A stretch of DNA of 64,000 bases from Bacillota bacterium (GTDB lineage Bacteria; Bacillota; Sulfobacillia; DUMF01), in contig JBNARI010000001.1 of the NCBI GenBank assembly GCA_049718765.1, forward strand, positions 109,697-173,696, in the 5' to 3' direction. Positions 11,917-42,040 of this stretch are shown piece after piece. Made by a program: the position numbers and the translations under genes. The number at the start of each line of letters is the position of its first letter. Position 1 is the stretch's first letter. The notes beneath the pieces are model-generated. The model ran no database searches and was not told the origin of the DNA. It worked only from the letters and a program-made list of their open reading frames with translations.

Positions 11917-11943
11917 TGGCGGCAGGATGATTGCCGCTTTTTC
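11917..11943 (+). terminator. rho-independent terminator after the ABC/zinc-ribbon operon
   Basis: GGCGGCAGG-atga-TTGCCGC stem-loop followed by TTTTTCATT. Confidence 0.5.
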
Positions 11944-12018
11944 ATTATGTTTGATCCAGGGGCTGTTATTTAGTGCTGTATAATATTGCCGTGACTTGAC
12001 AGACTGGGATCGCAGGCC

Positions 12019-15000
12019 TTGGGGGGAGGGAACATGGGGGAAGCGATTGCCAGTTTGAAGGCAACCCTTGAACAAGCGCGCCAACGCTGCTTGGAGGCTG
12101 AAAGGACAGCTGATGAACTGAGAAAGGCCATGCATGCTCTTGAAGGCCTGGTGAAGTCCCTGGCAACGGATTCCCTGACGAGCAGTGACGAAGTATGTAT
12201 TACAGTGCTTGACTGGGTGCTTGGGTGCCTGGGCTTGGAGATGGGAGCAGTGTGGCTTGGAGAGCGCTGGGCCCACAGGGGAATCTCAGAGCCGTTGAAA
12301 GTGATAGCCGCGATGGGCCAAGCCCCAGCGGTGCAAGTGGTAGCTGACTGGACCAAAGTGGAGCCAGAGTCGGCTGCGCTCTGGCCTGTGAGGCTCGCGA
12401 TGGAAGGCCTGGACATTCGGGCTTCGATTGGGGTAACAGTGGAGCACAAAGGGGCTTGGGGCGGCGTGGTTGTGTGCTCGAGGGAGCCTCGCCAGTGGAA
12501 GGAGGCGGAGGTGGCCCCTGTGGAAATGGCCGCTTCAGTGCTCGGGCTGGGTGCCTGGATTGAAAAAGTGGTTGGTCGCTGGTCCAGCGCTAACCGGGCC
12601 GCTCGCGTGCTAGCAAGGTGCGCCGAGTTGCTGGTGGGGGCAGAAGACGAAACCAGCTTGTTCCAGCAGGTGTGCGGCCTCTTGGTAGATGAGGGCGGCT
12701 ACAGGTTGGCTTGGGTGGGGCTCGCTGAACCCGAGCACAGGACCGTAGTTCCGGTAGCGTGGGCGGGGGAGGAAGGCGGCTACCTTAGGGGATTGCGGGT
12801 TACATGGGATGACTCGGAGTTGGGGCGCGGTCCTACCGGCACGGCCATCCGAACTGGAAAGCCCGTTTCCGTTAAGGACGTGGAAACACACCCAGAGTAT
12901 TCTCCATGGCGCCAAGAGGCCAGGAAACGAGGTTACGGTTCCTCAATTGCACTGCCGTTGAGCGTGGGCGGAGTTACGATAGGAGCCTTAAACGTTTACG
13001 CGGCCCGATCCGACGTCTTCTCTCCGGAAGAAACTGAACTGTTGGTTAGATTAGCGGACAACTTGTCCCTTGGCATTAGGGTTCTCCGGGACAAGCGGGC
13101 GCTTGACCAAAGCGAGCTGCGGTATCGGAAGCTGGTGGAGTAGTCATCCAGTTCGATCCTAGTGCTTGACATGACCGGGCGGGTACTTGACGCAAACCCC
13201 AGGGCTTGCGCCATGACAGGGCGTTCCCTGGAGGAAATAAGGCATGTGAACCTGTTCGAGCTGTTTTGCGGCGAGGCGCCAGACCCTGAGAAAGTCTTGG
13301 CACAGCTCAGGTCAGGGCAAGGGGTGAGCTTTGAGACTGAGATCAAAGCGCGGGACGGGGCGATCACCTTTGTGGAAGTGAATGCCGGACCGATTGACGG
13401 TGGCCTGTGGCACGCCGTACTGCGGGACATAACCCTGCGAAAGCAAATGGAAGGGGAAATCAGGTGGCAAGCGGCGCGGGCTGAGGCGCTCCTCAAGGTG
13501 GCCTCACGACTCGCTGCCCAGGTTGACCTTGAGCAAAGGCTGAAGGCTGTGTGCGAAGAGGTGTGCGAGGTGCTCAGGGTGCCTGTGAGCGCGGTGTTGC
13601 TTTACGACGAGGCGATGGATGGCTACCATGTAGCCTGGTGCAGTGGGCTGCCCAGTGGTTTCACAAGCCAACTTGGCCTTGTGCCCAGGGCGGAGTTCGA
13701 CGGTCTTGTGAAGGGGGCGGGTTCGCCAGTGGTGGTTGCGGATATGGGCAAGGCAATCACCGGGAGGGTTGCAGCTCTGTGCCAGGAATTGGGGCTTTAT
13801 AGCTGCGCGGTGGTGCGGATGGACAGGGGCGCAGTGCCAGTTGGAGCTTTGGCCGTTGCTTCTTTGGGCGCTCCTAGGGAGTTTGGGCCCATGGAGCTCA
13901 GCTTGCTTCAGGGCATTGCCGACCAGGCTGTCCAAGCGATAGTCAACGCCAAGCTTTACCACCAGTCCCAGCGCCAGTTACGCCAGCTTCAGGTGCTGCG
14001 CAGGATTGACATGGCCATCACTGGCAGCATGGACGTTCGGGTGGTGTTGGGCGTCATCCTGGACGAGGTTACCAGCTACCTGGGGCTGGAGCGGTGCTGC
14101 TCCTCAACCCACACACCCAGTTTCTCGAGTACTCTGCTTGGCGTGGATTCAAAACAGCCCTCCCAGAGAAAACTGGGGTGCGCCTGGGGGAGGAATACGC
14201 TGGTCAGGTCGCCCTCAGCCAGAGGCTGCTGTTTGCAGCCATCCCCACAGAGGCAAGGTCAAGTTCTCCCCAAGTAAAGGCGCTGGCCACCGAAGGGTTT
14301 TCCAGCTACCTGGGTGCGCCCCTCACCGCAAAGGGCAAAGTGGTCGGGGTGCTCGAGGTATTGAGCCGTCAGGTGCTTTCCCCAAACAGGTCTTGGATTG
14401 AATTCCTTGAGACCTTTGCCAGGCAAACTGCCATTGCCATAGACAATATGGTCATGTTCGAACAAGTGCAGAGGTCTCACAACGAGCTGATTGCGGCTTA
14501 CGAGGCTACCATCGAGGGTTGGGCCTATGCGCTGGACTTGCGGGACAGGGAAACTGAAGGCCACAGCAGAAGGGTCACTGAAATCACCGTGAGGCTTGCC
14601 CGCAAGATGGGCATGAGAGAGGACGAGCTGGTGCACGTTCGCCGTGGCGCTCTGCTCCACGACATCGGCAAACTGGGCGTTCCTGACAGCATTCTGCTGA
14701 AGCCTGGGCGCCTTAGCGAAGAGGAATGGCAAATCATGAGGAAGCACCCCCAGTTCGCCCGCGACATGCTCTGGAGCATAAGTTACCTGCGGCCTGCCCT
14801 GGACATCCCGTACTGCCACCACGAAAGGTGGGACGGCACGGGCTATCCCAGGGGGCTTCGGGGAGAGGAAATACCTCTTGCCGCAAGGATATTCGCCGTG
14901 GTTGATGTGTGGGACGCCTTGAGCTCCGATCGCCCCTACAGGAGCGCCTGGCCACGGGAACAGGTGAGGGATTACATCCTGAAACAGTCTGGTAAGCATT

Positions 15001-15050
15001 TTGATCCGCGGGTAGTCAGCTTGTTCTTGAAGGAGCTTGACCAGTTGTGA
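12019..15050 (+). pseudogene. disrupted multi-domain c-di-GMP phosphodiesterase gene (GAF-GAF / PAS-GAF / GAF-HD-GYP), broken by an in-frame TAG and a -1 frameshift
   Basis: Three ORF fragments (12019/12034..13143; 13162..14277; 14094..15050). The first two share a frame and are separated only by a TAG at 13141–13143 that falls inside a PAS N-terminus (…SELRYRKLVE*SSSSILVLDMTGRVLDANP). Around 14091–14096 the GAF continuity (…VTSYLGLER | VLLLNPHTQ…) requires a +1 G inserted in a short GG run. The C-terminal fragment carries HD-GYP motifs (HDIGK, HHERWDGTGYP). The intact paralogue lies immediately downstream. Confidence 0.55.
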
Positions 15051-17143
15051 GGAGCAAAGGATTGCCACGGGAGGTTCTCCGTGAAGGGCTGCAGCAAGTC
15101 CAGCAAAGCATGGCAAGGGCCCTCGGGATTTGGCTGGAGTTCGTTGGGCCCAACGGGGAATACATAACCGAAGTTTCCAACATGAGTGGGCTTTGCGCCA
15201 TGCTCCATCACGTAGCCGCTTGTGGGGCAAAGTGCGATTCCCTGCACAAAGAGTACGCTCTGGCCGCGGCGTCGGCTGGTGAGGTTGTGACTCGCCGGTG
15301 CTATGCGGGACTGACGTGCGTGGCGGTTCCCGTTCGCCTGTCTGGAGAAGTGGTGGCGGTAGCCGTGGGCGGAGGGATTGTGACCGGGGAAGGGTACGAC
15401 GGAGATTTGGAGGCACTTACCCGGGAGACAGGTTTGGACCCGGAAGGGCTTAGGGAAGCTTCAACCCGGGCTCCACGGATGGCCCACGAGAAGCTGAGGA
15501 TGGTGATGGGCATGGTGCAGGAGGTGAGCGGCACTGTTGTACAGCTGCTCAGGGCAAAGCACGAGTACGAGGGCAGAGAGAACCAGCTCAGGGCGTTGCT
15601 TGAGTTTGGCAAGAACGTTTCGAGCAGCCTGGATGTGGCTGAGGTGGCTCGCAGGGCCCTCGAGTCGGTGCTCAGCCTGACTGGTGCGAGCAGCGGCTCC
15701 GTTATGATGCTGAGCGAAGACTTGACAGGTACTCGCTTGTCCGAGCTGGCTGCGTCTGTGAGCTCTCCAGGCGAGGGGGACGTGGTGCCTTCGGGAGAGC
15801 TTGTGGCGGTCGTGGGGGAAAGGAGCTGCCCGGTAAGGTTCGATAGCCGGCCAGATGGTCCCACGCCCGAAGAGAGGAAGCCCGGGGTGGCATTGCCCTT
15901 GGTGGTGGGCGGACGCGTGACCGGCGTCATGACCTTGGCAGGCAAGCCCGGGGGAGCGAGCTTTGCTGACGACGAAGTGGATTTCCTGGGAACGCTGGGG
16001 ACGAGCCTTGGCTTAGCCCTTGAGAACGCGCGGCTGTTCCGCACCCTTGAGTCCAGAGCTGCTATGCTGGAACGCCTCATAGACGTGGGCAGGCTTGTGA
16101 GCAGGAGCCTTGACAAAGAGACAGTGGTCAGGTCTGCTTTGGAGAGCGTGAGGGATGTGCTTGGGGCTGAGCGTTGTGCGCTGTATCTGGTGGACGAAGT
16201 CACTGGAGAGCTTGTGCTTCAAGGCAGCCTTGGCCTGCAGAGGCCCGGGTCCCTTGCCACTAGGGTGAAGGCCAGAGGCGGCATAATTGCCAAGGTTATG
16301 GGTGCAGCCGAACCTGTGGTGATAATGGACTTGACTGGCGAAGAGGTCAAGCCCATTGCGCGCAGCGCTGGTGAAGCCCAGGGGCTGGCGCTGGTGCCCG
16401 TGCGCGCTGGTGGCAAAGTTCTGGGGATCCTGGTAGCTTCTTGCGCAACTCCACGCCAGTGGAGCAAAGAAGAGCTTGGCTACCTGCTGATAGTCGCCAA
16501 CCAGGCGGGTCTTGCCCTGGAGAACGCCCGCCTTTACAGCTCTTTGCGGGATTACTACTTTAGCGCAGTGCAGTCCCTTGCCACAGCGCTTGAAGCCAAG
16601 GACATGTACACAAGGGGACATTCCCAGAGGGTGGCGCTTTGGGCCCGAGCCTGCGCAAAGCAACTTGGGCTCAGCGCCGAAGAACAAGAGCAGGTGTTCA
16701 TAGCTGGGCTGCTCCACGACGTTGGCAAGATTGGGGTGCGTGAGGCAGTGCTGCAAAAAAGGGGTGCGCTGGATGGCCAGGAGCGCAGGGAAATGCAACA
16801 ACATCCCGTCATTGGAAGCCGCATCCTGGAACCTGCCAAGTTCCCGCCTCCAGTGGTTGCAGCGGTGAAGCACCACCATGAGGATTACGGGGGAGGCGGA
16901 TACCCAGAAGGCATTGCTGGTGAAAACATCCCTCTGCTTGCCCGGATCATAAGGGTGGCAGATGCTTACGATGCGATGACTTCAGCGAGGCCGTACCGCG
17001 CTGCTATGGACCCTGCAAAAGCCCGCCAGGAACTTGTGGCGGGGTCGGGCAAGCAATTTGACCCCCGGGTGGTAGAGGCTTTCCTCAACATCGATCCCGA
17101 GGAAATGTGGCGTATCGGTGCCATGCGGTGGCCTTCCCAGTGA
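15047..17143 (+). CDS. PocR-sensor / GAF-GAF / HD-GYP domain c-di-GMP phosphodiesterase
   Basis: 698 aa. The N-terminal PocR-type sensory domain has conserved Cys and RRCYAGLTCVAVPV…GGGIV. Two GAF domains. C-terminal HD-GYP: LLHDVGKIGV, HHEDYGGGGYP. GTG start overlaps the upstream stop (GTGA). Confidence 0.85.
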   Translation: MRSKGLPREVLREGLQQVQQSMARALGIWLEFVGPNGEYITEVSNMSGLCAMLHHVAACGAKCDSLHKEYALAAASAGEVVTRRCYAGLTCVAVPVRLSGEVVAVAVGGGIVTGEGYDGDLEALTRETGLDPEGLREASTRAPRMAHEKLRMVMGMVQEVSGTVVQLLRAKHEYEGRENQLRALLEFGKNVSSSLDVAEVARRALESVLSLTGASSGSVMMLSEDLTGTRLSELAASVSSPGEGDVVPSGELVAVVGERSCPVRFDSRPDGPTPEERKPGVALPLVVGGRVTGVMTLAGKPGGASFADDEVDFLGTLGTSLGLALENARLFRTLESRAAMLERLIDVGRLVSRSLDKETVVRSALESVRDVLGAERCALYLVDEVTGELVLQGSLGLQRPGSLATRVKARGGIIAKVMGAAEPVVIMDLTGEEVKPIARSAGEAQGLALVPVRAGGKVLGILVASCATPRQWSKEELGYLLIVANQAGLALENARLYSSLRDYYFSAVQSLATALEAKDMYTRGHSQRVALWARACAKQLGLSAEEQEQVFIAGLLHDVGKIGVREAVLQKRGALDGQERREMQQHPVIGSRILEPAKFPPPVVAAVKHHHEDYGGGGYPEGIAGENIPLLARIIRVADAYDAMTSARPYRAAMDPAKARQELVAGSGKQFDPRVVEAFLNIDPEEMWRIGAMRWPSQ

Positions 17144-24922: not shown

Positions 24923-26457
24923 GGGAACTGGTGCTTGTTCTTGATTTCGGTGCTCAGTACGCTCAGCTCATAGCCAGGCGAGTGAGGGAGTGCAACGTTT
25001 ACTGCGAGATTGTGCCACACGACATTCCTCCAGACGCAATACTCCAGAGAGAAGCTCGAGCTCTCATCCTGAGCGGCGGGCCGGCGAGCGTTTACGAAGA
25101 GGAAGCTCCGGGCGTTCACAAGGGCGTGTATGAGCTTGGATTGCCAATACTGGGCATTTGCTACGGGATGCAGCTGCTTGCCAGGGACCTTGGAGGCAGG
25201 GTAGAGCCTCACGTGAGCCGGGAGTTCGGCAAATGCCAGGTTGAGCTCAGACCTTCCCCTTTGTTCGACGGGGTGAACTCGCCCGCCCAGGTATGGATGA
25301 GCCACGGGGACACAGTTGTGGAACCACCGCCGGGTTTCCGCGTGATCGCCAGTTCCAGAGGCACCCCGGTGGCTGCAATGGAAAACCCGGAGCGGCGGTT
25401 CTTCGGAGTGCAATTCCATCCCGAGGTGGTGCACACCCTCGAGGGGAGACGGGTCATCCGGAACTTCCTGTTCAACGTTGCTGGCTGTACTGGGGATTGG
25501 ACGCCAGAGTCCTTCATAGACCAGGCGATAAGGGGCATCAGGGAGCAGGTTGGTAGCGGACGAGCGGTGTGCGCCTTGAGCGGGGGCGTGGACAGTACAG
25601 TTGCCTCGGTGCTGGTTCATCGAGCTATTGGTGACGCCCTCGCATGCGTGTTTGTGGACCATGGGCTACTCAGAAAAGGCGAGGCCCAGGAAGTTGTGGA
25701 GACTCTGTCCACCAGGTTCGGGATGAAGCTAGTGACTGTGGACGCCAGTGAAAGGTTCCTCGCGAAACTGAAGGGTGTGGTTGACCCAGAACAGAAGAGG
25801 AAGCTGATTGGCGCTGAGTTCATTCGGGTTTTCGAGGAACAGGCAGCCCAAATAGAAGGGGTAAAGTTCCTGGTCCAGGGCACACTTTATCCCGACGTGA
25901 TCGAGAGCGGCACAGGGAGCGCAGCGGGCGCAGCAGCGGTCATAAAGAGCCACCACAACGTGGGAGGCCTTCCCAGGGACATGAAGCTAGAGCTGGTAGA
26001 GCCCCTGCGTTTGCTCTTCAAGGACGAGGTTAGGCGCATCGGCCTGGCCCTTGGATTGCCCGAGGAAGTAGTTTACAGGCAGCCTTTCCCAGGCCCTGGG
26101 CTTGCGGTGAGGATAATTGGGGAAGTGGACAAGGAAAAGCTTGCCGTATTGAGGGAAGCAGACAGCATTGTTCGCGAGGAAATCTTGAGGGCTGGGCTGT
26201 CCAGGGAAGTGTGGCAGTACTTTGCGGTGCTCACCGATCTCAAGAGCGTGGGCGTGATGGGTGACAAGCGTACCTACGGTCGAATGGTGGCGGTTAGGGC
26301 GGTGAGCAGCGAAGACGGTATGACTGCCGATTGGGCAAAACTCCCCCACGAGCTGCTGGAGCGAATTGCAGGCCGTATTGTGAACGAGGTGCCGGGCGTT
26401 AACCGGGTGGTGTATGACATAACGTCCAAACCACCTGCCACAATCGAATGGGAATAA
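24919..26457 (+). CDS. guaA: GMP synthase (glutamine-hydrolysing)
   Basis: N-terminal GATase ([18 protein letters not shown]…GICYGMQLL), a PP-loop ATP-pyrophosphatase ([12 protein letters not shown]) and the C-terminal dimerisation domain ending PATIEWE. TTG start overlaps the hpt stop. Confidence 0.95.
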
Positions 26458-27266
26458 GGCGGAAAGTTACATTGGTGCTCCTGGCCTCGTTCTTACTTTG
26501 GTCAGGAGCAATTGAACCTCGGCTGGTCAAGGTTGACCGGGTTGTGGTGGAAGTACCTGGCCTTCCAGAGGCCTTCGAAGGTTTCACTTTCCTTCACCTT
26601 TCCGACTTGCACAGCACCACTTTTGGCCCAGGGCAGGAACGGCTGCTGGGTTTGCTTCTTAAGGAGGACTTCGATGCGGTTGCGTTCACCGGCGACATGG
26701 TGGACAGCAGCACAGGAGACTCCAGGCCCCTGGTGGAGCTCTTGGCAGGTCTCCCAAGGCAGAAGCCCAAGTACTTCGTTCCAGGCAACCATGAGCTCAG
26801 CCTTGCACAGGAGGATCCCGAGTCTTGGGTGCGCCTTGAGAGGGAGATGGGGAGCTTCGGTGCTGAGGTGCTGGCTGACAGGATAGTGGGGATTTACCGT
26901 GATGGGGCCAGCCTCTTCATTGGGGGTGCGGTAGCAAAGCCAGGCGAACCTGTGGACCTGAAGCGCCTTTCTGGGAGCACCGTCTTGCTTTGCCACGTGC
27001 CCTTTGTGATGGACCAGGGAGCCGAGCTTGGAATAGCCGTGGTGTTGACTGGGCACACCCATGGTGGGCAGGTGAGGATACCCGGCTTGGGAGCGCTGTT
27101 TGTACCTGGGGATACTTTTCCGCCCAAGTACAGTGAGGGGCTGTACAAACTAAAGGGTACTTCCATGTACGTCAATCCCGGACTCGGCACTACCCGTATT
27201 GGGTTGCGCTTCAATTGCCCTCCAAGGGTGAGCCTTGTAACGTTGAGGGCTGCAGGGAGGGATTGA
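26448..27266 (+). CDS. calcineurin-like metallophosphoesterase (YkuE-like), membrane-anchored/secreted
   Basis: N-terminal hydrophobic anchor, then HLSDLH…AFTGDMVD…VPGNHE…GHTHGG metallophosphatase motifs. Confidence 0.75.
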
Positions 27267-27268
27267 GG

Positions 27269-28552
27269 GTGCGGTTGGCGCTGATTGGGCCGCCCGACTC
27301 AATTCGGCTCATTCGTGAGGTTGCGGTGGAGTTCGGCGAGGGCTTTAAGCTCGTGGAGAAGCCGTACCGCAGCTTCGAGGAGCTAAAGGACGTAAACGGC
27401 TTCTGCAAGGAACACGCAGTTGACGTTGTGCTTTTCAGCGGCCAGGTGCCCTACCACTGGGTCAAGCAGCAGGAGAACCTTGACTGCCCTGCGCTGTATA
27501 TCCCCCGGGATGGCACTTGCCTGTACCGTTCCCTCTTCGACGTTTATCGGGACGGTGTGGACATATCCGCATTGAGCTTTGACACTGTCAAGAAGGAGAC
27601 CATCATTGAGACCTACCAGGACCTGCGCCTGCCAATGGGAGAGGTGTATACCTTCGAATATGAGGGATATATCAACTACGAAGAAGTGACCAGGTATCAC
27701 CTGGAGCTGTGGAGCAGCGGCAAGACCGTGGCAGCTGTAACTGGACTAAACACGCCTTATTGGCAGCTCAAAGAAAAAGGGGTTCCCGTATACAGGATGT
27801 TCCCAACACGCTCCATCGTGCGGGAAAGCCTGAGAAAGGCCCTGCTGTATGGGGAGAGCGTAAGACTGAAGCACACCCAGCTAGCCCTGGTGCTTGTGAG
27901 GCCAGGGCTCAAGGAAGATGGCCTTGCCAACCTGGGCTACACGGCTCAACAATTGGTGCTGGATCTCCACAGGACCCTCGTCGAGTATGCCCAGCAAATT
28001 CAGGGACTGGTGGTGAAACTGCGGGACACCGAGTTTGCGATTGTGGCCACCAGAGGCAGCCTTGAGGAGGTCACCAACTGCTTCAGGGAGTTTCCCTTGT
28101 TGGATTCCATTGAAAGGAACTTGCCCATGAAGGTGGGCATTGGCATAGGATTGGGGCGCACTGCCCTGAGCGCTGAGGCCAACGCCAGGGAAGGTCTGAG
28201 ACTGGCCCTGACGGTTGGACGTCACAGCGCATGCTTCGTTGTGACTGATGACGGAAAGGTACTGGAACCAATTTACAGCAGGGGCAATTACCCTGGCGAG
28301 GACCTGGTGTCACTTTCAAGTAGCGTTGGTCTTAGGCCTACCACCCTGAGCAAGATCAAGCGTGCCCTTCAAAGGCTGGACAGAGAGCACATCACGTCTC
28401 AGGAGCTCGCGTCGGCAATGGGCATCAGCGAAAGGAGCGCCCGCCGAGTGCTGTCACGGCTCGAGGAAAAGGGCCTTGCCGAGGTGCTCGGGGGCAACCC
28501 TGTGAGGGACAAAGGCCGGCCCAGGCTGGTGTACAGGCTGATGCTAGAGTGA
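27269..28552 (+). CDS. transcriptional regulator with a degenerate GGDEF-like domain (RDTEF in place of GGDEF) and a C-terminal winged-helix HTH
   Basis: 428–445 aa. GLVVKLRDTEFAIVATRG…MKVGIGIGLG matches the GGDEF-domain core with the catalytic motif mutated. The C-terminus ITSQELASAMGISERSARRVLSRLEEKGL is an HTH. GTG at 27269 follows AGGGAGG and overlaps the upstream stop. Sits directly upstream of the abgT-like operon. Confidence 0.55.
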   Translation: MRLALIGPPDSIRLIREVAVEFGEGFKLVEKPYRSFEELKDVNGFCKEHAVDVVLFSGQVPYHWVKQQENLDCPALYIPRDGTCLYRSLFDVYRDGVDISALSFDTVKKETIIETYQDLRLPMGEVYTFEYEGYINYEEVTRYHLELWSSGKTVAAVTGLNTPYWQLKEKGVPVYRMFPTRSIVRESLRKALLYGESVRLKHTQLALVLVRPGLKEDGLANLGYTAQQLVLDLHRTLVEYAQQIQGLVVKLRDTEFAIVATRGSLEEVTNCFREFPLLDSIERNLPMKVGIGIGLGRTALSAEANAREGLRLALTVGRHSACFVVTDDGKVLEPIYSRGNYPGEDLVSLSSSVGLRPTTLSKIKRALQRLDREHITSQELASAMGISERSARRVLSRLEEKGLAEVLGGNPVRDKGRPRLVYRLMLE

Positions 28553-28665
28553 TGCTGTGGACAATCGTGATTGACGTCACAAAGAGGAAAACGGCCAACC
28601 TCAGTAGAATTATTGTACTAAAAACGGCCACATGACCGAAATGTGACCGAAAAGGAGGCTTAGAT

Positions 28666-30186
28666 ATGGGGGATAGGCAAAGCAGAAGTGGCCTGCAACG
28701 CTTCCTTGATTGGGTGGAGAGAGTTGGGAACAAGATACCACACCCCTTCATCCTGTTCTTGTACCTCATAATTGCGCTTATGATCATTTCCGCAATCCTG
28801 GCTTACGCCAACGTATCCGTGATCCATCCCACCACCAAGAAGCCAGTAGTAGCAAAGAGTTTGCTAACCGTAGAAGGGTTCCACTGGATGCTCCAGAACG
28901 CCCAGAAGAACTTCACTGACTTTGCACCCCTGGGACTGGTACTTACCATGCTGCTCGGAATAGGCTTGGCAGAACAGGTGGGGCTGCTTTCGGCTTTCAT
29001 GCGCAAGACCATTTACGGGGCACCAACTTGGGCGATCAGCCTTGCAGTGATGTTCATTGGCATTAACGGCAACATTGCATCTGACGCCTCTATTGTGGTG
29101 ATTCCTGCCCTTGCCGCTGGGGCTTACCTATCGCTCGGCAAGAACCCGCTGGTAGGCATTGCTGCTGCTTACGCTGCAACGTGCGCTGGCTTTTCCGCCA
29201 ATGTGCTCATTGTAGGCACGGACGCATTGCTTGCGGGCATAACTCAGGAGGCGGTTAAGATCATCGATCCCAAGTACCAGGTCAACCCTGCGGTGAACTG
29301 GTACTTCATGTTGGCATCCACGCTGCTGTTTACCGTCATTGGGGCCCTTATCACTGACAGGGTGATTGCACCCTGGCTTGGCAAGTATGAGGGCAAAGCC
29401 AAGCTGCGGGAGAACGATGAGCTTACACCGCTGGAACAAAGGGGACTGCGGAGCGCGGGAATTGCTGCCCTGGTGTTCCTGGTGATCCTTGGACTATTAG
29501 TGTTGCCCAAGGGCGCGATCCTCCGGGACCCCAAGAGCGGAACCATCATTCCGTCACCTTTCCTTTCAGGCATTGTGCCAATCATAATGCTCTTCTTCGT
29601 GACGGTTGGAGTGGCATACGGCAAGGCAGTTGGAGCTATCAAGACGGGAGCTGACGTACCCCGGCTTATGACTGAGGCCGTGAAGACCATGGCCGGGTAC
29701 ATTGTTCTGGTCTTCGTAATAGGTCAGTTCGTGGCATACTTCAACTGGACCAACATTGGGACCATCCTCGCTGTAAAGGGTGCCGAGTTCTTGAAGAACG
29801 CCGGCTTTACCGGATTCCCACTGGTGATCGGCATTATCTTGATTTCAACGTTCATAAACCTGTTCATCGGCAGTGGTTCTGCCAAGTGGTCGGTGCTCGC
29901 GCCAATATTCGTGCCCATGATGATGCTGTTGGGCTATTCGCCAGCTTTCACCCAAGTGGCATATAGGATTGGTGATTCGTCTACCAACCCTATCTCGCCC
30001 CTGTTCCCATACTTCCCAATCGTTCTGGCCCTTGCCCAGCAATACGACGAGAACGTTGGTGTGGGCACCATAATCTCTATGATGCTGCCTTATTCCCTTA
30101 TCTTCCTGGTGGTATGGATCCTGCAGCTTGGCGTGTGGATGGCCCTGAACCTGCCCCTGGGGCCAGGTGCAACGATCTTCATGTGA
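28666..30186 (+). CDS. AbgT family transporter (p-aminobenzoyl-glutamate / dipeptide-type uptake)
   Basis: 506 aa, polytopic, with AbgT-family blocks (FLDWVERVGNKIPHPFILFLYL…, GIAAAYAATCAGFSANVL…). ATG preceded by AAGGAGG. Confidence 0.85.
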   Translation: MGDRQSRSGLQRFLDWVERVGNKIPHPFILFLYLIIALMIISAILAYANVSVIHPTTKKPVVAKSLLTVEGFHWMLQNAQKNFTDFAPLGLVLTMLLGIGLAEQVGLLSAFMRKTIYGAPTWAISLAVMFIGINGNIASDASIVVIPALAAGAYLSLGKNPLVGIAAAYAATCAGFSANVLIVGTDALLAGITQEAVKIIDPKYQVNPAVNWYFMLASTLLFTVIGALITDRVIAPWLGKYEGKAKLRENDELTPLEQRGLRSAGIAALVFLVILGLLVLPKGAILRDPKSGTIIPSPFLSGIVPIIMLFFVTVGVAYGKAVGAIKTGADVPRLMTEAVKTMAGYIVLVFVIGQFVAYFNWTNIGTILAVKGAEFLKNAGFTGFPLVIGIILISTFINLFIGSGSAKWSVLAPIFVPMMMLLGYSPAFTQVAYRIGDSSTNPISPLFPYFPIVLALAQQYDENVGVGTIISMMLPYSLIFLVVWILQLGVWMALNLPLGPGATIFM

Positions 30187-30224
30187 TGGGGGACGAGTGA
30201 TTCCTAACTAGGATTTTGGCTAGC

Positions 30225-30258
30225 AAACGGCCACAGGAAACAACGCCTGTGGCCGTTT
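30225..30258 (+). terminator. strong hairpin (13-bp perfect stem) followed by TTTTA between abgT and the amidohydrolase genes; candidate intra-operon terminator/attenuator
   Basis: AAACGGCCACAGG-aaacaacg-CCTGTGGCCGTTT, then TTTTAAGGGAGGG (ribosome-binding site) and the ATG at 30274. The AAACGGCCAC half-site also occurs twice upstream of abgT. Confidence 0.5.
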
Positions 30259-30273
30259 TAAGGGAGGGCTCAC

Positions 30274-31467
30274 ATGGACCTGAAACGGCTGGTCGAGGAG
30301 TTTACGCCCCAAGCGATAGGGCTAAGGCGGGAGATCCATCGCCATCCAGAGCTGGGTTACGAGGAACACCGCACCTCTGCGCTGGTGGCGGAAAAGCTGG
30401 CTTTATGGGGGCTGAAAGTGCGGACTGGAGTTGCAAGTACTGGAGTGGTTGCAGACTTGGTGGGAGCAAAGCCTGGTGCCCACGTGCTTCTGCGGGCAGA
30501 CATGGATGCCCTTCCAATACAGGAGGAGACCGAACTGCCGTTCGCTTCCGAAGTACCTGGCAAAATGCACGCGTGTGGCCACGATCTGCACACAACCATA
30601 GTGCTTGGCGCGGCGTGGGTGCTCAGCGCGCTGAGGCAGCAGCTGACAGGAAGAGTTCGGTTCGTGTTTCAACCAGCAGAAGAGTGCAGTCCTACTGGTG
30701 GGGCAAAGCTCATGGTGGAGCAAGGCGTACTTCGAGACCCTCCGGTGGACTACGCGCTAGCGTTGCATGTTTGGCCAGAATTGAAAGTGGGGGAGTTCGG
30801 AATACGCCCTGGCACAGTGTCTGCGCAGTCGGACCGGCTGTTCATCAAGGTGAAAGGTAAGGGGGGTCATGCTTCTGCGCCCCACCAGGGAATTGACGCC
30901 ATCGTGGCTGCAGCTCAGGTAATATGTACTTTGCAGACTGTGGTTTCCCGGCGGGTGGATCCTAGAGATAGCGTGGTAATAACGATTGGCAAGATCCAGG
31001 GGGGAGAACGGTACAACGTAATTTGTGACTTGGTGGAGATGGAAGGGACTGTGAGGATCCTTTCGGGCGCCTACGGGGATAAGCTCCCGGCAATGATTCA
31101 GGAAGTGGCGGGCAATGCAGCCAAGGCGTGCGGAGCAGACGCGGAAGTGGAATATGTGCGGGGCTACCCAATGACCGTGAACCACCCAGGCCTTGCTGCT
31201 TGGGCTGCCCAGGTGATTTCAAGACAGTTTGGGCCGGAAGCGGTGCGGGAGATCCAGGCGGATGCTGGGGGAGAGGACTTCGCATTCATTGCCCAAAGGG
31301 TGCCTTCGCTTTACATCAAACTTGGCGCTGCCCCCGAGGAAAGCGTAGGGGAGATGTATCCGCTGCACCACAGCAAGGTGGTGTTTGATGAGCGGTGCAT
31401 TCCCGTGGGCATCAAAACCTTGTGCCTTCTAGTCCTTGGGCTTGGAGAGGCGGGATGCCGGATATGA
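30274..31467 (+). CDS. M20D family amidohydrolase (AbgA / hippurate-hydrolase-like)
   Basis: EIHRHPELGYEEHRTSALVAE…LRADMDALPIQE…MHACGHDLHTTI…, the M20D signature. Confidence 0.85.
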   Translation: MDLKRLVEEFTPQAIGLRREIHRHPELGYEEHRTSALVAEKLALWGLKVRTGVASTGVVADLVGAKPGAHVLLRADMDALPIQEETELPFASEVPGKMHACGHDLHTTIVLGAAWVLSALRQQLTGRVRFVFQPAEECSPTGGAKLMVEQGVLRDPPVDYALALHVWPELKVGEFGIRPGTVSAQSDRLFIKVKGKGGHASAPHQGIDAIVAAAQVICTLQTVVSRRVDPRDSVVITIGKIQGGERYNVICDLVEMEGTVRILSGAYGDKLPAMIQEVAGNAAKACGADAEVEYVRGYPMTVNHPGLAAWAAQVISRQFGPEAVREIQADAGGEDFAFIAQRVPSLYIKLGAAPEESVGEMYPLHHSKVVFDERCIPVGIKTLCLLVLGLGEAGCRI

Positions 31468-32768
31468 CTGATTTGTTGGCCAGGTGTACGGATTTTGCAC
31501 CCGAACTGATTGAACTCAGGCGGGAGATTCACCGCTATCCGGAACTGGGCTGGCTCGAGTTCAGGACAACAGATCGCGTGGCTCGGGTGTTGGAAGCCCT
31601 TGGCTACCAAGTGCTGCTAGGGGAGAAGGTGGTAAGAAGGGAGGCGGCGATGGGGGCACCAAGCCAGGAAGAATTGGCGCAAAACATACGGCGGGCTATC
31701 TCAGAGGGCGCTAGGGAACACGTGATCCACCAAATGAGGGGACTTACGGGCGTGGTTGGGGTGCTGGACACTCATGTTGATGGGCCAACAATTGCTTTCC
31801 GGGTGGACATGGATGCCCTGCCCCTGCAGGAAGCTGAAACCCAATCCCACAGGCCCTACAGAGAAGGTTTTTCTTCGTTGCACCAGGGGGTGATGCACGC
31901 ATGCGGCCATGACGGTCATGTGGCTGTAGGCGTTGGGCTGGCGCGGCTGCTGGCGGAGATCAGAGCTGAGCTCAAGGGAAAGGTCAAGCTCATCTTCCAG
32001 CCCGCCGAGGAGGGAGTTCGGGGAGCAAGGGCAATGGTTGAAGCTGGCATAGCCGACGACGTGGACTATTTCCTAGCTTTCCACTTGGGCCTTACTCCCA
32101 CCGACCAACTGGGGGTGGTTTGTAGGAGCAAGGGGTTCCTCTCAACCACCAAGATAGATGCCAGGTTCTTGGGCAAGGCGGCGCATGCGGGGGTCGCTCC
32201 GGAACAAGGGAGGAACGCGCTACTGGCTGCTGCCACTGCTGTGCTCAACGTTCACGCCATTGCTCCAAGCTCCCAGGGTGTGACCAGGGTGAACGTGGGC
32301 TACATGGAAGCTGGCTCCGGAAGGAATATTGTTCCAGATAAGGCGGTGCTGAAGCTAGAGACTCGAGGTGCAACTGACCAGCTTAACGAGTACGTGAGGG
32401 AGCGCGCGATTCAGGTGCTTGAAGCCAGTGCCCGAATGTACGGGGTCAGGTGCGAACTCGAGGAAGTGGGTCAATCGGGCAGCGCTGAAGGGGACGTGGA
32501 GCTGGCAGTCCTTGTGGGTAAGGTTGCCAGGGCAGTGGGTATCGAACTTATAGTGGATGAGGCGGAGGTGGGTGGCAGCGAAGACGCCACGCTTTTCATG
32601 AGCCGGGTGCAGAGAAGGGGCGGCAAGGCGTTATACTACCAGGTGCTCACACCCCTTGCCGCCGACCACCATAACAACCTATTCGACTTCGATGAGCGGG
32701 CGATCCCCCTGGCAGTGGCAATTGCGGGCGGCATGGTAAGGGAGATCGCCAGCATGTCACGTGTTTAG
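31455..32768 (+). CDS. M20 family amidohydrolase (AbgB-like)
   Basis: EIHRYPELGWLEFRTTDRVARVLE…FRVDMDALPLQE…MHACGHDGHVAVGVG…. ATG at 31455 follows GGAGAGG; the track ORF starts upstream at 31395. Confidence 0.8.
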   Translation: MPDMTDLLARCTDFAPELIELRREIHRYPELGWLEFRTTDRVARVLEALGYQVLLGEKVVRREAAMGAPSQEELAQNIRRAISEGAREHVIHQMRGLTGVVGVLDTHVDGPTIAFRVDMDALPLQEAETQSHRPYREGFSSLHQGVMHACGHDGHVAVGVGLARLLAEIRAELKGKVKLIFQPAEEGVRGARAMVEAGIADDVDYFLAFHLGLTPTDQLGVVCRSKGFLSTTKIDARFLGKAAHAGVAPEQGRNALLAAATAVLNVHAIAPSSQGVTRVNVGYMEAGSGRNIVPDKAVLKLETRGATDQLNEYVRERAIQVLEASARMYGVRCELEEVGQSGSAEGDVELAVLVGKVARAVGIELIVDEAEVGGSEDATLFMSRVQRRGGKALYYQVLTPLAADHHNNLFDFDERAIPLAVAIAGGMVREIASMSRV

Positions 32769-32778
32769 GCAATGGGCG

Positions 32779-33825
32779 TCACGGGCGAGCTACCTCCATA
32801 ACAACTCTAAACACGCTCTCGTCGTGGCTGGCTGCAAGCTCGAAGCCACGAACGGCTTCGGCCATGGTTACCACATGGGTTACCATGGGCCTTACCTTGA
32901 CCTTGCCAGAGCTTAGCAGGTCCACAGCGGTGCTGTAAGCCCCAGTGCCTGCCCGAGAACCCTCGATGGATATTTCCTTGTAATAGAGCTCCTCAAGGGG
33001 CACCCCTGAAGCTTTTTCCTTATACGTGCTGAAGACCACCACTTTCCCTCCAGGTTTGACTATGTTGATGGCTAAGGGTAACGCAGAGGTGTCTCCTGAC
33101 GCTTCCACAACTACGTCGAACCCTCCTGGGGCTACGGTGCTGAGCCTTTCCTGGAGTTGTTCACTTGACGAGCTGATTGCGAGGTCGCACCCAAGCTGTT
33201 CGGCCAGGGAGAGCCTGGATTGCCTTCTGCCTCCAACCAGAGCAACCTTGCCTGCACCTGCGGCCCTAAGCACTTGCGCGACTAGCAGCGCCGAATGTCC
33301 AGAACCCACTACGGCGGCTCTCTTGCCAATCATGGTTCCACAGCGGCTTACTGCCCTTACGGCACACGCGACTGCTACCAGAGACTGGGCTTCCAGCAAG
33401 TCCACGCCTTGCCCGACGGGGTGCACGATTTCTGCAGGCACAACCACGTACTCCGCCATTGCTCCGTCTCGGGTGCGCCCCAAAGCTATGCGGTTCCTGC
33501 AAAACTCGGCGTGCTCCGAAAGGCAAAGGTCACATTTGTGGCAAGGGTAGCTTGCTTCAGCCACCACCGTGTCCCCACATGTCACGTTGCTGACCCCTTC
33601 GCCAAGGGCGTCCACCTTACCCGAGAACTCATGACCTGGCACCACAGGGTAAGCCGCTCTGTGCTTTCCCTGCCATACCGTCACGTCTGTTCCACAGTAC
33701 CCCACGTAGCACACTTTGATACGCACCTCATTTGGGCCTGGTTGAGGCAGCGGCCTGTCTTCCAGTGCCACTTGAAGGGGTGCAGCTATGACCACAGCTT
33801 TCAAGACTTCCGCCTCCCGACTCAA
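32779..33825 (-). CDS. Zn-dependent medium-chain dehydrogenase (polyol / L-threonine-3-dehydrogenase-like)
   Basis: VCYVGYCGTDVTVWQGKH…PVVPGHEFSGKV (zinc-ADH signature), a second Zn site CHKCDLCLSEHAEFC, and a Rossmann GxGxxG motif (AVVGSGHSALL). Last gene of the GntR-headed minus-strand cluster. Confidence 0.8.
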   Translation of the reverse strand: MSREAEVLKAVVIAAPLQVALEDRPLPQPGPNEVRIKVCYVGYCGTDVTVWQGKHRAAYPVVPGHEFSGKVDALGEGVSNVTCGDTVVAEASYPCHKCDLCLSEHAEFCRNRIALGRTRDGAMAEYVVVPAEIVHPVGQGVDLLEAQSLVAVACAVRAVSRCGTMIGKRAAVVGSGHSALLVAQVLRAAGAGKVALVGGRRQSRLSLAEQLGCDLAISSSSEQLQERLSTVAPGGFDVVVEASGDTSALPLAINIVKPGGKVVVFSTYKEKASGVPLEELYYKEISIEGSRAGTGAYSTAVDLLSSGKVKVRPMVTHVVTMAEAVRGFELAASHDESVFRVVMEVARP

Positions 33826-33828
33826 AAA

Positions 33829-34842
33829 CTAGCAGATTCTCAGTACTGCCCTGCCTGTGACCCTGCCTGCGTGTAAGTCTTCCAGGGCAAGGTTGGCTTC
33901 GTGCAATGGGTATTCCTTGCCAATGACAGGCGTAATAGCCCGCCTGGCTATGAGGTCGAGGGCTTCGACGACACTTTGTTTGGAGCATCCCCTTGATCCC
34001 TTCACGCAGATTTGTCGGCGCACGAGTTCCGGCGTGGGAATGATTGCGCTGCTTTGGCTAGAGTAGCCAAGCACGACAATGGTGCCTTCGGCTTTGACGA
34101 GCTGCCTTGCGAGCCCAATGGAACTTTCAGACCCTACGGTATCGATCACGGCATGAAACTGCTTGAAATGATTGGTGCCAAGTTCCGTGGTGAGGAAGCA
34201 TTCACCTATGCCCAATTTGCGCGCTTGCTCTAGCTTGGGTTGGACGGATTCGATTCCGGTAACCCATGCTCCGCTCAGTCTTGCTATTTGAGCTGCGTGG
34301 ATTCCCAGCCCCCCTAGTCCGACTACAGCTACTCGCTGGCACAGCCCAACTCCGCCTGTGCGCTTCACTGCTTCAAGGCTGGTGGCAATAGCATCTGCTG
34401 CAATTGCAGCCTCGGGGAAATCTACCGTATCGGGCACCTGGATTACGTTTGCGGCGGGTACAGCCACAAACTCGGCGTACCCGCCATGGCTGGTAAATCC
34501 AATCTGTGAAACCATGTTTTCGCACAGCTGTTGCTTGCCTGTACGGCAATGTTCGCAGGTGCCGCAGCCCACGTAAAAGTAGACCACCACTTTCGTACCC
34601 TTCTTCAAACTGGTTACTGCTTGACCCAAGTCTTCGATAGTGCCCGCAATCTCGTGGCCGAGCACATGGGGCAGGCTTGGGAGCCTTTCAGGGGGCAACC
34701 AGCCGTTAGCAAGCTTTACGTCGCTGTGACACACGCCGCAGCTGTATACTTTCACGAGCACCTGGTCGCTGCCAAGATGTGGGACTGGCATTTCTTCCAG
34801 GCGCAAGGGCTTTCCAAACGAGCGCAATACCATTGCCCTCAT
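33829..34842 (-). CDS. Zn-dependent alcohol dehydrogenase (AdhP-like)
   Basis: SCGVCHSDVKLANGW…LGHEIAGTIEDLG, structural-Zn Cys cluster (CGTCEHCRTGKQQLC) and VAVVGLGGLGIHA. Confidence 0.85.
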   Translation of the reverse strand: MRAMVLRSFGKPLRLEEMPVPHLGSDQVLVKVYSCGVCHSDVKLANGWLPPERLPSLPHVLGHEIAGTIEDLGQAVTSLKKGTKVVVYFYVGCGTCEHCRTGKQQLCENMVSQIGFTSHGGYAEFVAVPAANVIQVPDTVDFPEAAIAADAIATSLEAVKRTGGVGLCQRVAVVGLGGLGIHAAQIARLSGAWVTGIESVQPKLEQARKLGIGECFLTTELGTNHFKQFHAVIDTVGSESSIGLARQLVKAEGTIVVLGYSSQSSAIIPTPELVRRQICVKGSRGCSKQSVVEALDLIARRAITPVIGKEYPLHEANLALEDLHAGRVTGRAVLRIC

Positions 34843-34845
34843 AGC

Positions 34846-36045
34846 TCATACCTTCCCAAGGATGTCCAGGAACTCCTCATCGGTTAGGCAACGTTTTTTC
34901 TCCGTCGAGAGCTTTTTCACTTCTTCAACTACTACATCCAGTTTGTGGTCGGGCACAGTCACACCGAGTTCTGCTGCCTTGACCTTAACGGATTCCTTAC
35001 CGCTCTTCTTGCCTAGCACCACTCGGATTTGCTGGCCCACAAGTCCAGGTTTGTACGGGAATATGGCCAGGGGCATGCTGTACACGGCTTCCATACCCAG
35101 TCCTATTTCCCGCATGAAGGCAGATTCGCCTACTATGGGCTTGTTGCGGGCAGGCTTGATTCCGCTTAGCTCTTCAAGCATCTTTGACAACTGCACCAGT
35201 TTATCGAGTTTAATGCCAGTGCGATATCCGTAGAGCAGTTCCAAGGCAAGGCAGACTTCATCCAGTGCTGCGTTTCCTGTACGCTCGCCCAGGCCGTTCA
35301 CGCAAACGTGTACTGACTGGGCTCCTGCTTCGAGACCTGCCAGGGATGTGGCAGTGGCTAAGCCAAGGTCGTTGTGGGTGTGAATCTCCAGGGGCAAATC
35401 TGTCCACTGGCGGACCCGCGTGACCAGGTACCTTATCGCAGCGGGCGTGGCGCAGCCTGTGGTGTCTATAATCGCAATGCTGTCTGGGCGCGCATTTGCC
35501 ACAACGGTGGTTATGAGCTGCCTCAAGAAGTTGATGTCGGCCCTGGTGGTGTCAAAGGGGAAGAAACACACGTTTAGCCCTTTGGACTTGGCATAGGCTA
35601 CCGCTTCCACGGCTCTGTCAAGGGCCTGCTGTTCGGTCCACTTGAGTTGGTACTTGATTTTAGGCTCTCCGCTGGGGCTTTCAATCACCACGTGCTGCAC
35701 TCCGCAATCCACAGCCTTATCGATGTCTCCCTTGGTGGCCCTGCAGAAAGCGTATATCTTGGCGGGAAGTTTCAACTCAATTATCTTGCGAATCGCAGAA
35801 GCGTCTTCTTGGGAAACTGCTGGCATCCCCGCCTCTATCCTCTGGACGCCTACTTCTGCAAGCATCTCAGCAATAGCGATCTTTTCCTTTTCCCGAAACA
35901 CCACTCCGGGGCTTTGTTCGCCGTCGCGCAGAGTGGCGTCATGAAACTCGATGCCCCTTGGAAGTTGTGGCAGCACTTCCTTCTCGAAGTTGAAAGGGCT
36001 TACCCACCAGTTGTCGGTTTTCCATTCGCCGTTCATGCTTGGCAC
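34846..36045 (-). CDS. HMGL-like DRE-TIM metallolyase: homocitrate / citramalate / 2-isopropylmalate synthase-family protein
   Basis: 399 aa. LRDGEQSPGV, HTHNDLGLATA and the LGERTGNAALDEV motifs of the alpha-IPM/homocitrate synthase family. No LeuA regulatory domain. Confidence 0.75.
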   Translation of the reverse strand: MPSMNGEWKTDNWWVSPFNFEKEVLPQLPRGIEFHDATLRDGEQSPGVVFREKEKIAIAEMLAEVGVQRIEAGMPAVSQEDASAIRKIIELKLPAKIYAFCRATKGDIDKAVDCGVQHVVIESPSGEPKIKYQLKWTEQQALDRAVEAVAYAKSKGLNVCFFPFDTTRADINFLRQLITTVVANARPDSIAIIDTTGCATPAAIRYLVTRVRQWTDLPLEIHTHNDLGLATATSLAGLEAGAQSVHVCVNGLGERTGNAALDEVCLALELLYGYRTGIKLDKLVQLSKMLEELSGIKPARNKPIVGESAFMREIGLGMEAVYSMPLAIFPYKPGLVGQQIRVVLGKKSGKESVKVKAAELGVTVPDHKLDVVVEEVKKLSTEKKRCLTDEEFLDILGKV

Positions 36046-36059
36046 CTCCTCAGAAGCTT

Positions 36060-37022: not shown

Positions 37023-37025
37023 GCG

Positions 37026-38954: not shown

Positions 38955-39019
38955 GGGCGATCCTCCTTATGACGCTGGTTGGTCTCCGCCATGACGGCGG
39001 AGACCAACGTGTTCCAACA

Positions 39020-40069: not shown

Positions 40070-40095
40070 TTTTTAGGGATCCCTCCTTTTGATGC

Positions 40096-41304: not shown

Positions 41305-41343
41305 TGAGATGCCTCCTCTTCCACAAAAGTTGCGTTGGTCAAG

Positions 41344-42012: not shown

Positions 42013-42040
42013 TTAGCCAACCTGCCCTGCCTCAAGTCTT

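What the first reader, a model, noticed from the sequence alone, without database searches (positions are those of the whole stretch)
12019..15050. Large GAF-PAS-GAF-HD-GYP signalling gene split by an in-frame TAG (13141–13143) and a -1 frameshift in a G run (about 14091–14096), beside an intact PocR-HD-GYP paralogue
Seen in sequence: fragments 1 and 2 share a reading frame and are separated only by a TAG that sits where a PAS domain begins (…ELRYRKLVE*SSSSILVLDMTGRVLDANPRA…). Protein continuity from fragment 2 into fragment 3 (…VTSYLGLER/VLLLNPHTQFLEY…, a GAF start) needs one extra G in GAGCGGTGCTG.

Inference: this is either a recently decaying paralogue, two sequencing/assembly errors, or (less likely) recoding.

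Established knowledge: HD-GYP domains hydrolyse c-di-GMP. Whether this organism has one or two such enzymes here changes the predicted signalling capacity.
Basis: seen in the sequence. Interest (0 to 1): 0.5.

Follow-up and report, generated by a model that had tools for sequence, protein, structure and literature searches.

The report
Broken c-di-GMP sensor phosphodiesterase gene
A roughly 1,000-residue signalling-enzyme gene in an uncultured heat-loving Firmicute has been knocked out by one stop-codon mutation and one 7-base deletion, which makes it an ordinary, recently dead gene rather than an example of unusual decoding.

Summary
Three ORFs at 12034-15050 together encode one NTD-GAF-PAS-GAF-GAF-HD-GYP protein. 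It is interrupted by an in-frame TAG (13141-13143) and by a frame change near 14088-14094. Intact proteins of 987-1125 aa, about 50% identical, align continuously across both lesions. The TAG replaces a CAG/CAA (Gln) codon found in all six homologue DNAs, so it is a C>T nonsense mutation. The frame change is a net 7-nt loss relative to all six homologue DNAs, not a slip in a G run.

All other checked ORFs in the window (about 55) look intact. TAG ends 6 of 47 intact genes, and TAG stops swap with TGA/TAA at the same residue in a syntenic relative. There is no slippery site and no unusual RNA structure.

The only syntenic relative found (L041) has the same gene cut by a different in-frame TAG. 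A Moorella thermoacetica homologue is split by IS66.

Best reading: a real, recent pseudogene in a dispensable, repeatedly lost sensor gene. The intact PocR-HD-GYP gene is then the only working enzyme at this locus. Assembly error is unlikely but cannot be excluded without reads. Recoding is very unlikely. Interest is low.

The parts
11918..11938 (+). Terminator-like hairpin followed by a T-run. It probably ends the upstream ABC-transporter/AAA_assoc_C operon.
   Evidence: consensus scan only
12025..12036 (+). Ribosome-binding site GGAGG (12025-12029) and ATG start (12034-12036) of the disrupted gene.
   Evidence: Sequence. The public 369-aa product MGB9866405.1 starts at this ATG.
12034..13140 (+). 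Fragment A, frame 1. It holds an N-terminal domain of about 200 aa with no Pfam match, followed by a complete GAF domain (about 12643-13077).
13141..13143 (+). Premature stop codon TAG. It replaces a CAG/CAA (Gln) codon present in all six homologue DNAs, and Gln occupies this column in 9 of 11 aligned homologues.
13144..14091 (+). Fragment B, frame 1. It holds PAS (about 13150-13434), a complete GAF (about 13522-13941) and the first helix of the next GAF. No protein record was found for it in the public annotation.
14088..14094 (+). Frame-change junction, from frame 1 to frame 3. The window reads CTGGAG|CGGTG where homologues read CTGGAC-GCN-GCN-GCN-ATC, a net loss of 7 nt (two Ala codons plus one base).
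14092..14277 (+). Out-of-frame tail of ORF B in frame 1, ending in TAA at 14275-14277. Its codon-usage score is negative, so it is not coding.
14092..15050 (+). Fragment C, frame 3. It holds the rest of the third GAF (to about 14444) and the HD-GYP domain (about 14532-15014), with the HD and GYP motifs intact. The stop is TGA at 15048-15050.
   Evidence: The public 318-aa product MGB9866406.1 starts at GTG 14094.
15047..17143 (+). Intact neighbouring PocR-GAF-GAF-HD-GYP gene. Its GTG start overlaps the stop of fragment C (GTGA). It is conserved next to the broken gene in the syntenic relative L041.

Best explanation
This is a genuine, recently inactivated gene (pseudogene). It once encoded a cytoplasmic multi-sensor HD-GYP phosphodiesterase of about 1,007 residues, with the architecture N-terminal domain-GAF-PAS-GAF-GAF-HD-GYP. 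Two independent DNA lesions destroyed the reading frame. One is a C>T transition that turned a Gln codon (CAG) into TAG at 13141. The other is a net 7-nt deletion in an Ala-rich stretch (LG-L-E/D-A-A-A-V-L-L) at about 14088-14094, at the start of the third GAF domain.

Translation from the intact start (RBS GGAGG, ATG 12034) should stop at the TAG. That would yield at most a 369-residue sensor stub without a catalytic domain. The HD-GYP part has no usable ribosome-binding site and a truncated GAF, so it is probably not made.

Shown: the lesions, their nature, the intactness of homologues and of neighbouring genes, the use of TAG as a stop codon, and independent disruptions in relatives. Inferred: that the lesions exist in the cells rather than only in the assembly, that the HD-GYP moiety is not expressed, and that the loss is recent.
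For: - Eleven homologues align without a break across both lesion sites. The top seven (987-1024 aa) cover 94% of the reconstruction.
- The window reads GAG-TAG-TCA where six homologue DNAs read GAR-CAG/CAA-GCC.
- The window is 7 nt shorter than all six homologue DNAs at the frame change, and no homopolymer is involved.
- All other checked ORFs in the window (about 55) have full-length Pfam matches, so both lesions fall in a single gene.
- TAG terminates 6 of 47 intact window genes.
- In the syntenic relative L041, TAG stops of the permease-component gene and of guaA correspond to TGA and TAA at the same residue in the window.
- The frame-specific codon-usage signal is still strong in all three fragments.
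- All metal-binding and GYP motif columns, and 194 of the 221 columns invariant in the 11 homologues, are retained.
- dN/dS against L041 is 0.18 or less where it could be computed, for fragment A. Most divergence therefore accrued under selection, and the inactivation is recent.
- The same gene is independently broken in relatives. L041, with flanking genes 74-96% identical, has TAG replacing an invariant Ser. The M. thermoacetica homologue is split by IS66 with an 8-bp target duplication.
- A further relative (L037) lacks both HD-GYP genes at this syntenic spot, so the gene is dispensable.
- The region contains no repeats or composition anomaly that would provoke misassembly.
Against: - The sequence is a metagenome-assembled genome. 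No reads were available, so consensus or strain-mixing artefacts cannot be excluded.
- No relative closer than about 50-56% identity exists for this gene, so the timing of the lesions cannot be measured.
- dS is saturated.
- The window copy sits on a long branch. It differs at 27 of the 221 columns invariant in the other 11 sequences, against 2-14 in leave-one-out counts for the others. This could also reflect lineage-specific adaptation.
- The public annotation treats fragments A and C as proteins.
Confidence: 0.8

Rival explanations
1. Sequencing or assembly artefact. The organism has an intact gene, and both lesions were introduced by consensus or polishing errors or by mixing strains in the MAG.
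For: The source is a MAG contig of 225 kb, and the technology and coverage are unknown. A G4 run lies 3-9 nt upstream of the frame change. The coding signal and catalytic motifs are undecayed.
Against: - About 55.6 kb of other coding sequence in the window shows no frameshift or premature stop. Two random errors landing in the same 3-kb gene has a chance of roughly 3-5%.
- The indel is a net 7 nt relative to six homologues, not a homopolymer +/-1.
- There are no repeats to confuse assembly.
- Independent, unquestionably real disruption of the same gene family occurs elsewhere, through IS66 in an isolate genome.
Confidence: 0.08
2. The lesions are real but the pieces still work. In this gene-fission reading, fragment A and/or fragment C, and possibly B by re-initiation at GTG 13162 or ATG 13171, are made as separate polypeptides. 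The HD-GYP enzyme would then persist without its sensors.
For: - HD and GYP motifs are intact in fragment C.
- PGAP calls A and C as proteins.
- Start codons lie 18-27 nt after the TAG.
- In L041 the gene caller also produces two proteins.
- Shorter family variants exist, such as P0010.
Against: - Fragment C begins inside a GAF domain, with 28 model positions missing.
- Its only upstream Shine-Dalgarno-like GGAG is 2 nt from GTG 14094, and there is no promoter-like site.
- Fragment B has no SD.
- No homologue is split at these positions, and the L041 and Moorella breaks lie elsewhere.
Confidence: 0.08
3. Recoding. UAG would be read through (as pyrrolysine or by a suppressor tRNA) and the frame restored by programmed -1 ribosomal frameshifting, giving a full-length protein.
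For: - Two syntenic orthologues each carry an in-frame TAG rather than TGA or TAA.
- From my own knowledge, some relatives of this lineage (e.g. Thermacetogenium) encode the Pyl system.
- A -1 shift at GAG|CGG would give LGLEAVLLLNP.
Against: - The two TAGs are at different, non-homologous positions, each one mutation away from the sense codon of the homologues.
- TAG is a normal terminator and is interchangeable with TGA/TAA at orthologous stops.
- There are no other in-frame TAGs in about 73 genes of the window plus L041.
- No pyl genes or tRNA are present in the window.
- There is no X XXY YYZ slippery heptamer, and downstream folding is not unusual (z -1.26 and -0.77).
- Even after a -1 shift, the product lacks two residues that all homologues have.
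Confidence: 0.02

Closest known systems
HD-GYP domain c-di-GMP phosphodiesterases (Pfam HD_5 / PF13487; RpfG-type catalytic domain) with GAF/PAS sensor modules
   Same: HD_5 matches at E=9.5e-37. The HD...HDIGK...HHERWDGTGYPRGL motifs are intact. The GAF and PAS input domains sit N-terminal to the catalytic domain, as in hundreds of database proteins.
   Different: The reading frame is broken twice, so no full-length enzyme is encoded. The N-terminal domain of about 200 residues has no significant Pfam match. No receiver domain is present, unlike RpfG itself.
Uncharacterised NTD-GAF-PAS-GAF-GAF-HD-GYP family of spore-forming thermophilic Bacillota (P0001-P0009, the L041 orthologue, the Moorella thermoacetica homologue)
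   Same: Same domain order and length, with 48-56% identity over 81-95% of the length. The syntenic position next to a PocR-HD-GYP gene matches L041.
   Different: The window copy is the most divergent member (about 50% identity, against 66-81% among the others). It lacks the optional extra PAS seen in P0003 and L041, and it carries two lesions. Contexts of the other intact members are not syntenic.
Ordinary bacterial pseudogenes (nonsense plus small-deletion class)
   Same: Multiple disabling lesions are confined to one non-essential gene. Homologues are intact. The relatives checked show independent disruptions or absence of the gene at this site.
   Different: Nothing of note. The public annotation does not flag it as a pseudogene but lists two separate proteins.

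Membership tests
HD-GYP phosphodiesterase (PF13487 HD_5) | HD_5 profile match above the gathering threshold | tested here: met
   126.8 bits against a cut-off of 27.2, covering model positions 7-170 of 170
HD-GYP phosphodiesterase (PF13487 HD_5) | Catalytic H-D dyad and G-Y-P motif present | tested here: met
   …LLHDIGK… and …HHERWDGTGYPRGL… lie in frame 3. These columns are invariant in alignment A1.
HD-GYP phosphodiesterase (PF13487 HD_5) | An uninterrupted ORF linking the sensor domains to the catalytic domain, as in homologues | tested here: not met
   TAG at 13141-13143 and a frame change at 14088-14094
HD-GYP phosphodiesterase (PF13487 HD_5) | c-di-GMP hydrolysis activity | not testable with these tools
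   This needs an enzyme assay. No family member here has been characterised.
Pseudogene | Disabling lesions relative to intact homologues | tested here: met
   Eleven homologues are continuous across both sites.
Pseudogene | Lesions are present in the organism's DNA and not only in the assembly | not testable with these tools
   No reads are available. Indirect support comes from the clean remainder of the window and the 7-nt size of the indel.
Pseudogene | Gene is dispensable in the lineage | tested here: met
   The gene is independently broken in L041 (TAG) and in M. thermoacetica (IS66), and it is absent from the syntenic site in L037.
Pyrrolysine-encoding gene | In-frame UAG conserved at the same position among orthologues | tested here: not met
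   Homologues have CAG/CAA there. The L041 UAG is at a different residue.
Pyrrolysine-encoding gene | pylT and pylSBCD present in the genome | not testable with these tools
   None are in the 64-kb window: no tRNA, no Rfam hit and no Pyl-type Pfam domains. The rest of the MAG could not be retrieved.
Programmed -1 ribosomal frameshift | Slippery heptamer X XXY YYZ at the shift site | tested here: not met
   The sequence C CTG GGG CTG GAG CGG contains no such heptamer in frame 1.
Programmed -1 ribosomal frameshift | Stimulatory downstream structure, and conservation of the shift in homologues | tested here: not met
   The fold z-score is -0.77. All homologues are in a single frame.

The most novel reading that the evidence does not exclude
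Knock-out of this particular multi-GAF HD-GYP sensor gene may be recurrent and possibly selected in Moorella-like thermophilic Bacillota. The independent events seen are TAG plus a 7-nt deletion here, a different TAG in the syntenic relative L041, an IS66 insertion in M. thermoacetica, and a probable frameshift in P0013. If selected, loss of one c-di-GMP phosphodiesterase would be an adaptive way to raise c-di-GMP levels rather than neutral decay. A less likely variant is that the two in-frame TAGs are tolerated because this lineage partially reads through UAG.
Probability: 0.12. Interest if true: 0.45.

Novelty: new member of a known kind. Interest (0 to 1): 0.15.

Why it matters
The finding mainly matters for annotation and for counting signalling genes. 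This locus should be scored as one working HD-GYP enzyme (the PocR-type neighbour) plus one pseudogene. The public record instead lists two extra proteins, a 'GAF domain-containing protein' and an 'HD-GYP domain-containing protein'. The finding also shows that an in-frame TAG in a Moorella-related MAG need not signal pyrrolysine. The repeated, independent disruption of the same sensor gene in relatives is a small hint that this c-di-GMP phosphodiesterase is dispensable or counter-selected in these organisms. On present evidence it is an ordinary pseudogene.

Tried and rejected
- Exact-sequence look-ups of window proteins in the contig index found nothing on record. The rest of the 225-kb contig or MAG, and therefore any pyl genes, could not be examined.
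- Genome contigs and metagenome-contig scans with the reconstructed protein found no relative above 59% identity and not the source itself.
- The contexts of the best intact homologues P0001, P0003, P0004 and P0006 are not syntenic. Two further PocR homologues, P0248 and P0249, as well as P0252, are not syntenic either.
- The leave-one-out count of deviations at otherwise invariant columns (27 of 221 for the window) is uninterpretable because the window copy sits on a long branch.
- dN/dS against L041 is uninformative about recent relaxation because dS is saturated at more than 1.1. The fragment-B pairing in that script was also mis-specified.
- RNA folding downstream of the TAG and of the shift site showed nothing unusual.
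- The promoter scan found no sigma-70-type site upstream of any fragment.
- tRNA and Rfam scans of the window were empty.
- The repeat and composition scans found nothing that would explain a misassembly.
- A literature search for pyrrolysine in related Bacillota gave nothing usable.
- One Pfam call failed because of a wrong-frame purS coordinate.

Full report
**What is in the sequence**

Three ORFs lie head to tail on the + strand.
- ORF A runs from 12019 (probable start ATG 12034, preceded by GGAGG at 12025-12029) to 13143 and ends in TAG.
- ORF B runs 13144-14277 in the same frame.
- ORF C runs 14010/14094-15050, one base back in frame.

Pfam gives the following domains.
- A has about 200 residues with no match, followed by a complete GAF.
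- B has a PAS that begins three residues after the TAG, followed by a complete GAF.
- C has a GAF lacking its first 28 model positions, followed by a full HD_5 (HD-GYP) domain.

A codon-usage score trained on 47 intact genes of the window is positive in frame 1 up to about 14000 and in frame 3 from about 14060 onwards. The 3' tail of ORF B scores negative.

**Is the continuity real?**

A 1005-residue reconstruction (X at the TAG, frames joined at 14088) finds intact proteins of 987-1024 residues at 48-52% identity over 94-95% of its length, with E=0. In the alignment of eleven homologues every sequence runs uninterrupted through both lesion sites.

At the TAG column, nine of eleven homologues have Gln (…LVEQASDGIF…). 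At the DNA level six homologues read GAR-CAG/CAA-GCC where the window reads GAG-TAG-TCA, which is a single C>T transition.

At the frame change all six homologue DNAs read CTGGAC-GCN-GCN-GCN-ATC-CTG (LG[MLV]DAAAILL). The window reads CTGGAG-CGGTG-CTG and is 7 nt shorter. The simplest history is GAG|GCNGCNG|CGGTG, a 7-nt deletion that removed two Ala codons plus one base. A 6-nt in-frame loss followed by a 1-nt loss is equally compatible.

Positions 14091-14096 are GCGGTG, not a G run.

**Source and quality of the surrounding sequence**

Exact look-ups show the window belongs to a 225-kb contig of an NCBI MAG labelled 'Bacillota bacterium'. Fragment A is MGB9866405.1 ('GAF domain-containing protein', 369 aa) and fragment C is MGB9866406.1 ('HD-GYP domain-containing protein', 318 aa). 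These are consecutive accessions, and the one fragment-B translation tried (ATG 13171 start) is not in the collection.

I scanned every other sizeable ORF of the window against Pfam. They include guaB, 2-hydroxyacyl-CoA dehydratase subunits, the CCA-adding enzyme, an ABC transporter, Moco biosynthesis genes, hpt, guaA, the pur operon, peptidases, transporters and a glycyl-radical enzyme. All have full-length domain matches and none is split.

TAG ends 6 of the 47 intact genes used for the codon table, each with complete C-terminal domain coverage. There are no DNA repeats or compositional breaks in 11.7-17.3 kb.

**Relatives**

Scans of genome and metagenome collections found nothing closer than 49-59% identity for this gene. 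GuaA places the MAG near Moorella, Thermanaeromonas and Ammonifex at 64-67% identity, with two uncultured relatives at about 80%.

One of these, GCA_012840015.1 (L037), is syntenic from the permease through the pur operon. It has an AsnC regulator where the window has the two HD-GYP genes.

Searching with the intact neighbour (PocR-GAF-GAF-HD-GYP) led to L041, a 117-kb Logan contig. It is fully syntenic, with the order HGD-D, CCA enzyme, ABC permease, ABC ATPase, AAA_assoc_C, the sensor HD-GYP gene, PocR-HD-GYP, permease, LysM, moeA … guaA. Most flanking proteins are 74-96% identical to the window's; the HGD-D subunit and the LysM protein are lower, at 59-63%. PocR-HD-GYP is 59% identical and the sensor gene 33-69%, depending on the domain.

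In L041 the orthologue is also interrupted, by a single in-frame TAG at L041 8170-8172 (…EALVRIA*RLNAQLDLD…). Every homologue, including the window, has Ser (TCN) at that position. This position differs from both window lesions.

In the same locus, TAG terminates the ABC permease gene and guaA at exactly the residues where the window uses TGA and TAA. TAG is therefore an ordinary stop codon in this lineage.

A third case is the Moorella thermoacetica homologue (GCA_001875325.1, L047). It is split into a 659-aa and a 518-aa ORF by an IS66 element (tnpA/B/C) flanked by an 8-bp duplication, AAATGGAC. Two further database members look damaged: P0013 has an out-of-frame-looking tail, and P0021 stops in the middle of a GAF domain. 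I could not retrieve their DNA.

**Interpretation**

The evidence fits a real and recent pseudogene.
- Two different kinds of lesion are confined to one gene, in an otherwise clean window.
- Each lesion is one simple mutational step from the homologues' sequence.
- The indel is of a size that consensus errors rarely produce.
- The same gene is independently knocked out or absent in relatives.

The inactivation is recent because the codon-usage signal, the HD and GYP motifs, and 194 of the 221 columns invariant in the other homologues are preserved. In addition, dN/dS against L041 is 0.18 or less for fragment A. That value is only a loose bound because dS is saturated.

Functionally, translation from ATG 12034 should end at 13141. 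Fragment C starts inside a GAF domain, and its only SD-like GGAG lies 2 nt from GTG 14094, so the catalytic domain is probably not made. The locus then contributes one working HD-GYP enzyme, the PocR-type neighbour.

**Rivals**

- *Assembly error (about 8%).* It cannot be excluded for a MAG without reads, but the clustering of the lesions, the 7-nt size of the indel and the clean remainder of the window argue against it.
- *Functional fission (about 8%).* The split positions are not shared with any homologue, and fragments B and C lack translation signals.
- *Recoding (about 2%).* Several observations argue against it. TAG is a normal stop. The two TAGs in the window and in L041 are at different positions. 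No other in-frame TAG occurs in about 73 genes. The window holds no pyl genes, no tRNA and no Rfam element. There is no slippery heptamer, and downstream folding is unremarkable (z -1.26 and -0.77). A -1 shift would still leave a 2-residue gap.

**Comparison with known families, and novelty**

The catalytic domain is a standard HD-GYP (PF13487) and the sensors are standard GAF and PAS domains. The family with this exact architecture is uncharacterised but common in spore-forming thermophilic Bacillota.

This is a new, broken member of a known kind. The one mildly interesting point is the repeated, independent disruption of the same sensor gene. I have not tested whether these losses are selected or merely reflect dispensability. 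Interest is low.

Noticed in passing
L041 8170-8172 (Logan SRR6986904 contig, syntenic with window 6191-26457): The syntenic orthologue of the broken gene carries its own in-frame TAG (…EALVRIA*RLNAQ…). It replaces a Ser that is invariant in homologues, and the frame is the same on both sides. It is called as two genes of 635 and 504 aa.
   Followed up: yes
L047 9980-12440 (Moorella thermoacetica GCA_001875325.1, MDDC01000014.1): The homologue of the same gene is split by an IS66 element (tnpA, tnpB and tnpC on the minus strand) with an 8-bp target-site duplication AAATGGAC. The N-terminal piece is annotated 'sporulation kinase E'.
   Followed up: yes
Proteins P0013 (796 aa) and P0021 (732 aa): P0013 ends in an Arg/Ser/Cys-rich tail that looks like out-of-frame translation within the HD-GYP region, and it lacks the PAS segment. 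P0021 is 82% identical to P0004 and stops in the middle of the last GAF domain.
   Followed up: partly
window 12034-15050 (public annotation): The NCBI annotation of the MAG lists fragment A (MGB9866405.1) and fragment C (MGB9866406.1) as separate proteins with consecutive accessions, and no protein record was found for fragment B. The locus is better described as a single pseudogene.
   Followed up: partly
window 26448-43457 compared with L037 11557-11713: In the relative GCA_012840015.1, guaA is followed directly by the xanthine/uracil permease and purE. The window has about 17 kb inserted between them, carrying a metallophosphoesterase, an AbgT transporter, M20 peptidases, two Zn-ADHs, an HMGL-like gene, TRAP-type transporter genes, an M24 peptidase, a GntR regulator and a periplasmic binding protein.
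   Followed up: no
window 12019-17143 compared with L037 1710-2232: Both HD-GYP genes are absent from the corresponding site in GCA_012840015.1, where an AsnC-type regulator sits next to the permease. The HD-GYP pair lies at a synteny breakpoint.
   Followed up: partly
window 14259-15416 (-) and 61755-63935 (-): These are long antisense ORFs of 385 and 726 aa opposite the HD-GYP domain and opposite the glycyl-radical enzyme gene. Neither has a Pfam match. They are probably shadow ORFs of GC-rich coding sequence.
   Followed up: partly
window 11979-12001: A perfect TATAAT (11979-11984) and a perfect TTGACA (11996-12001) lie upstream of the gene, but in the wrong order for a sigma-70 promoter. 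The consensus scan called no promoter here.
   Followed up: no
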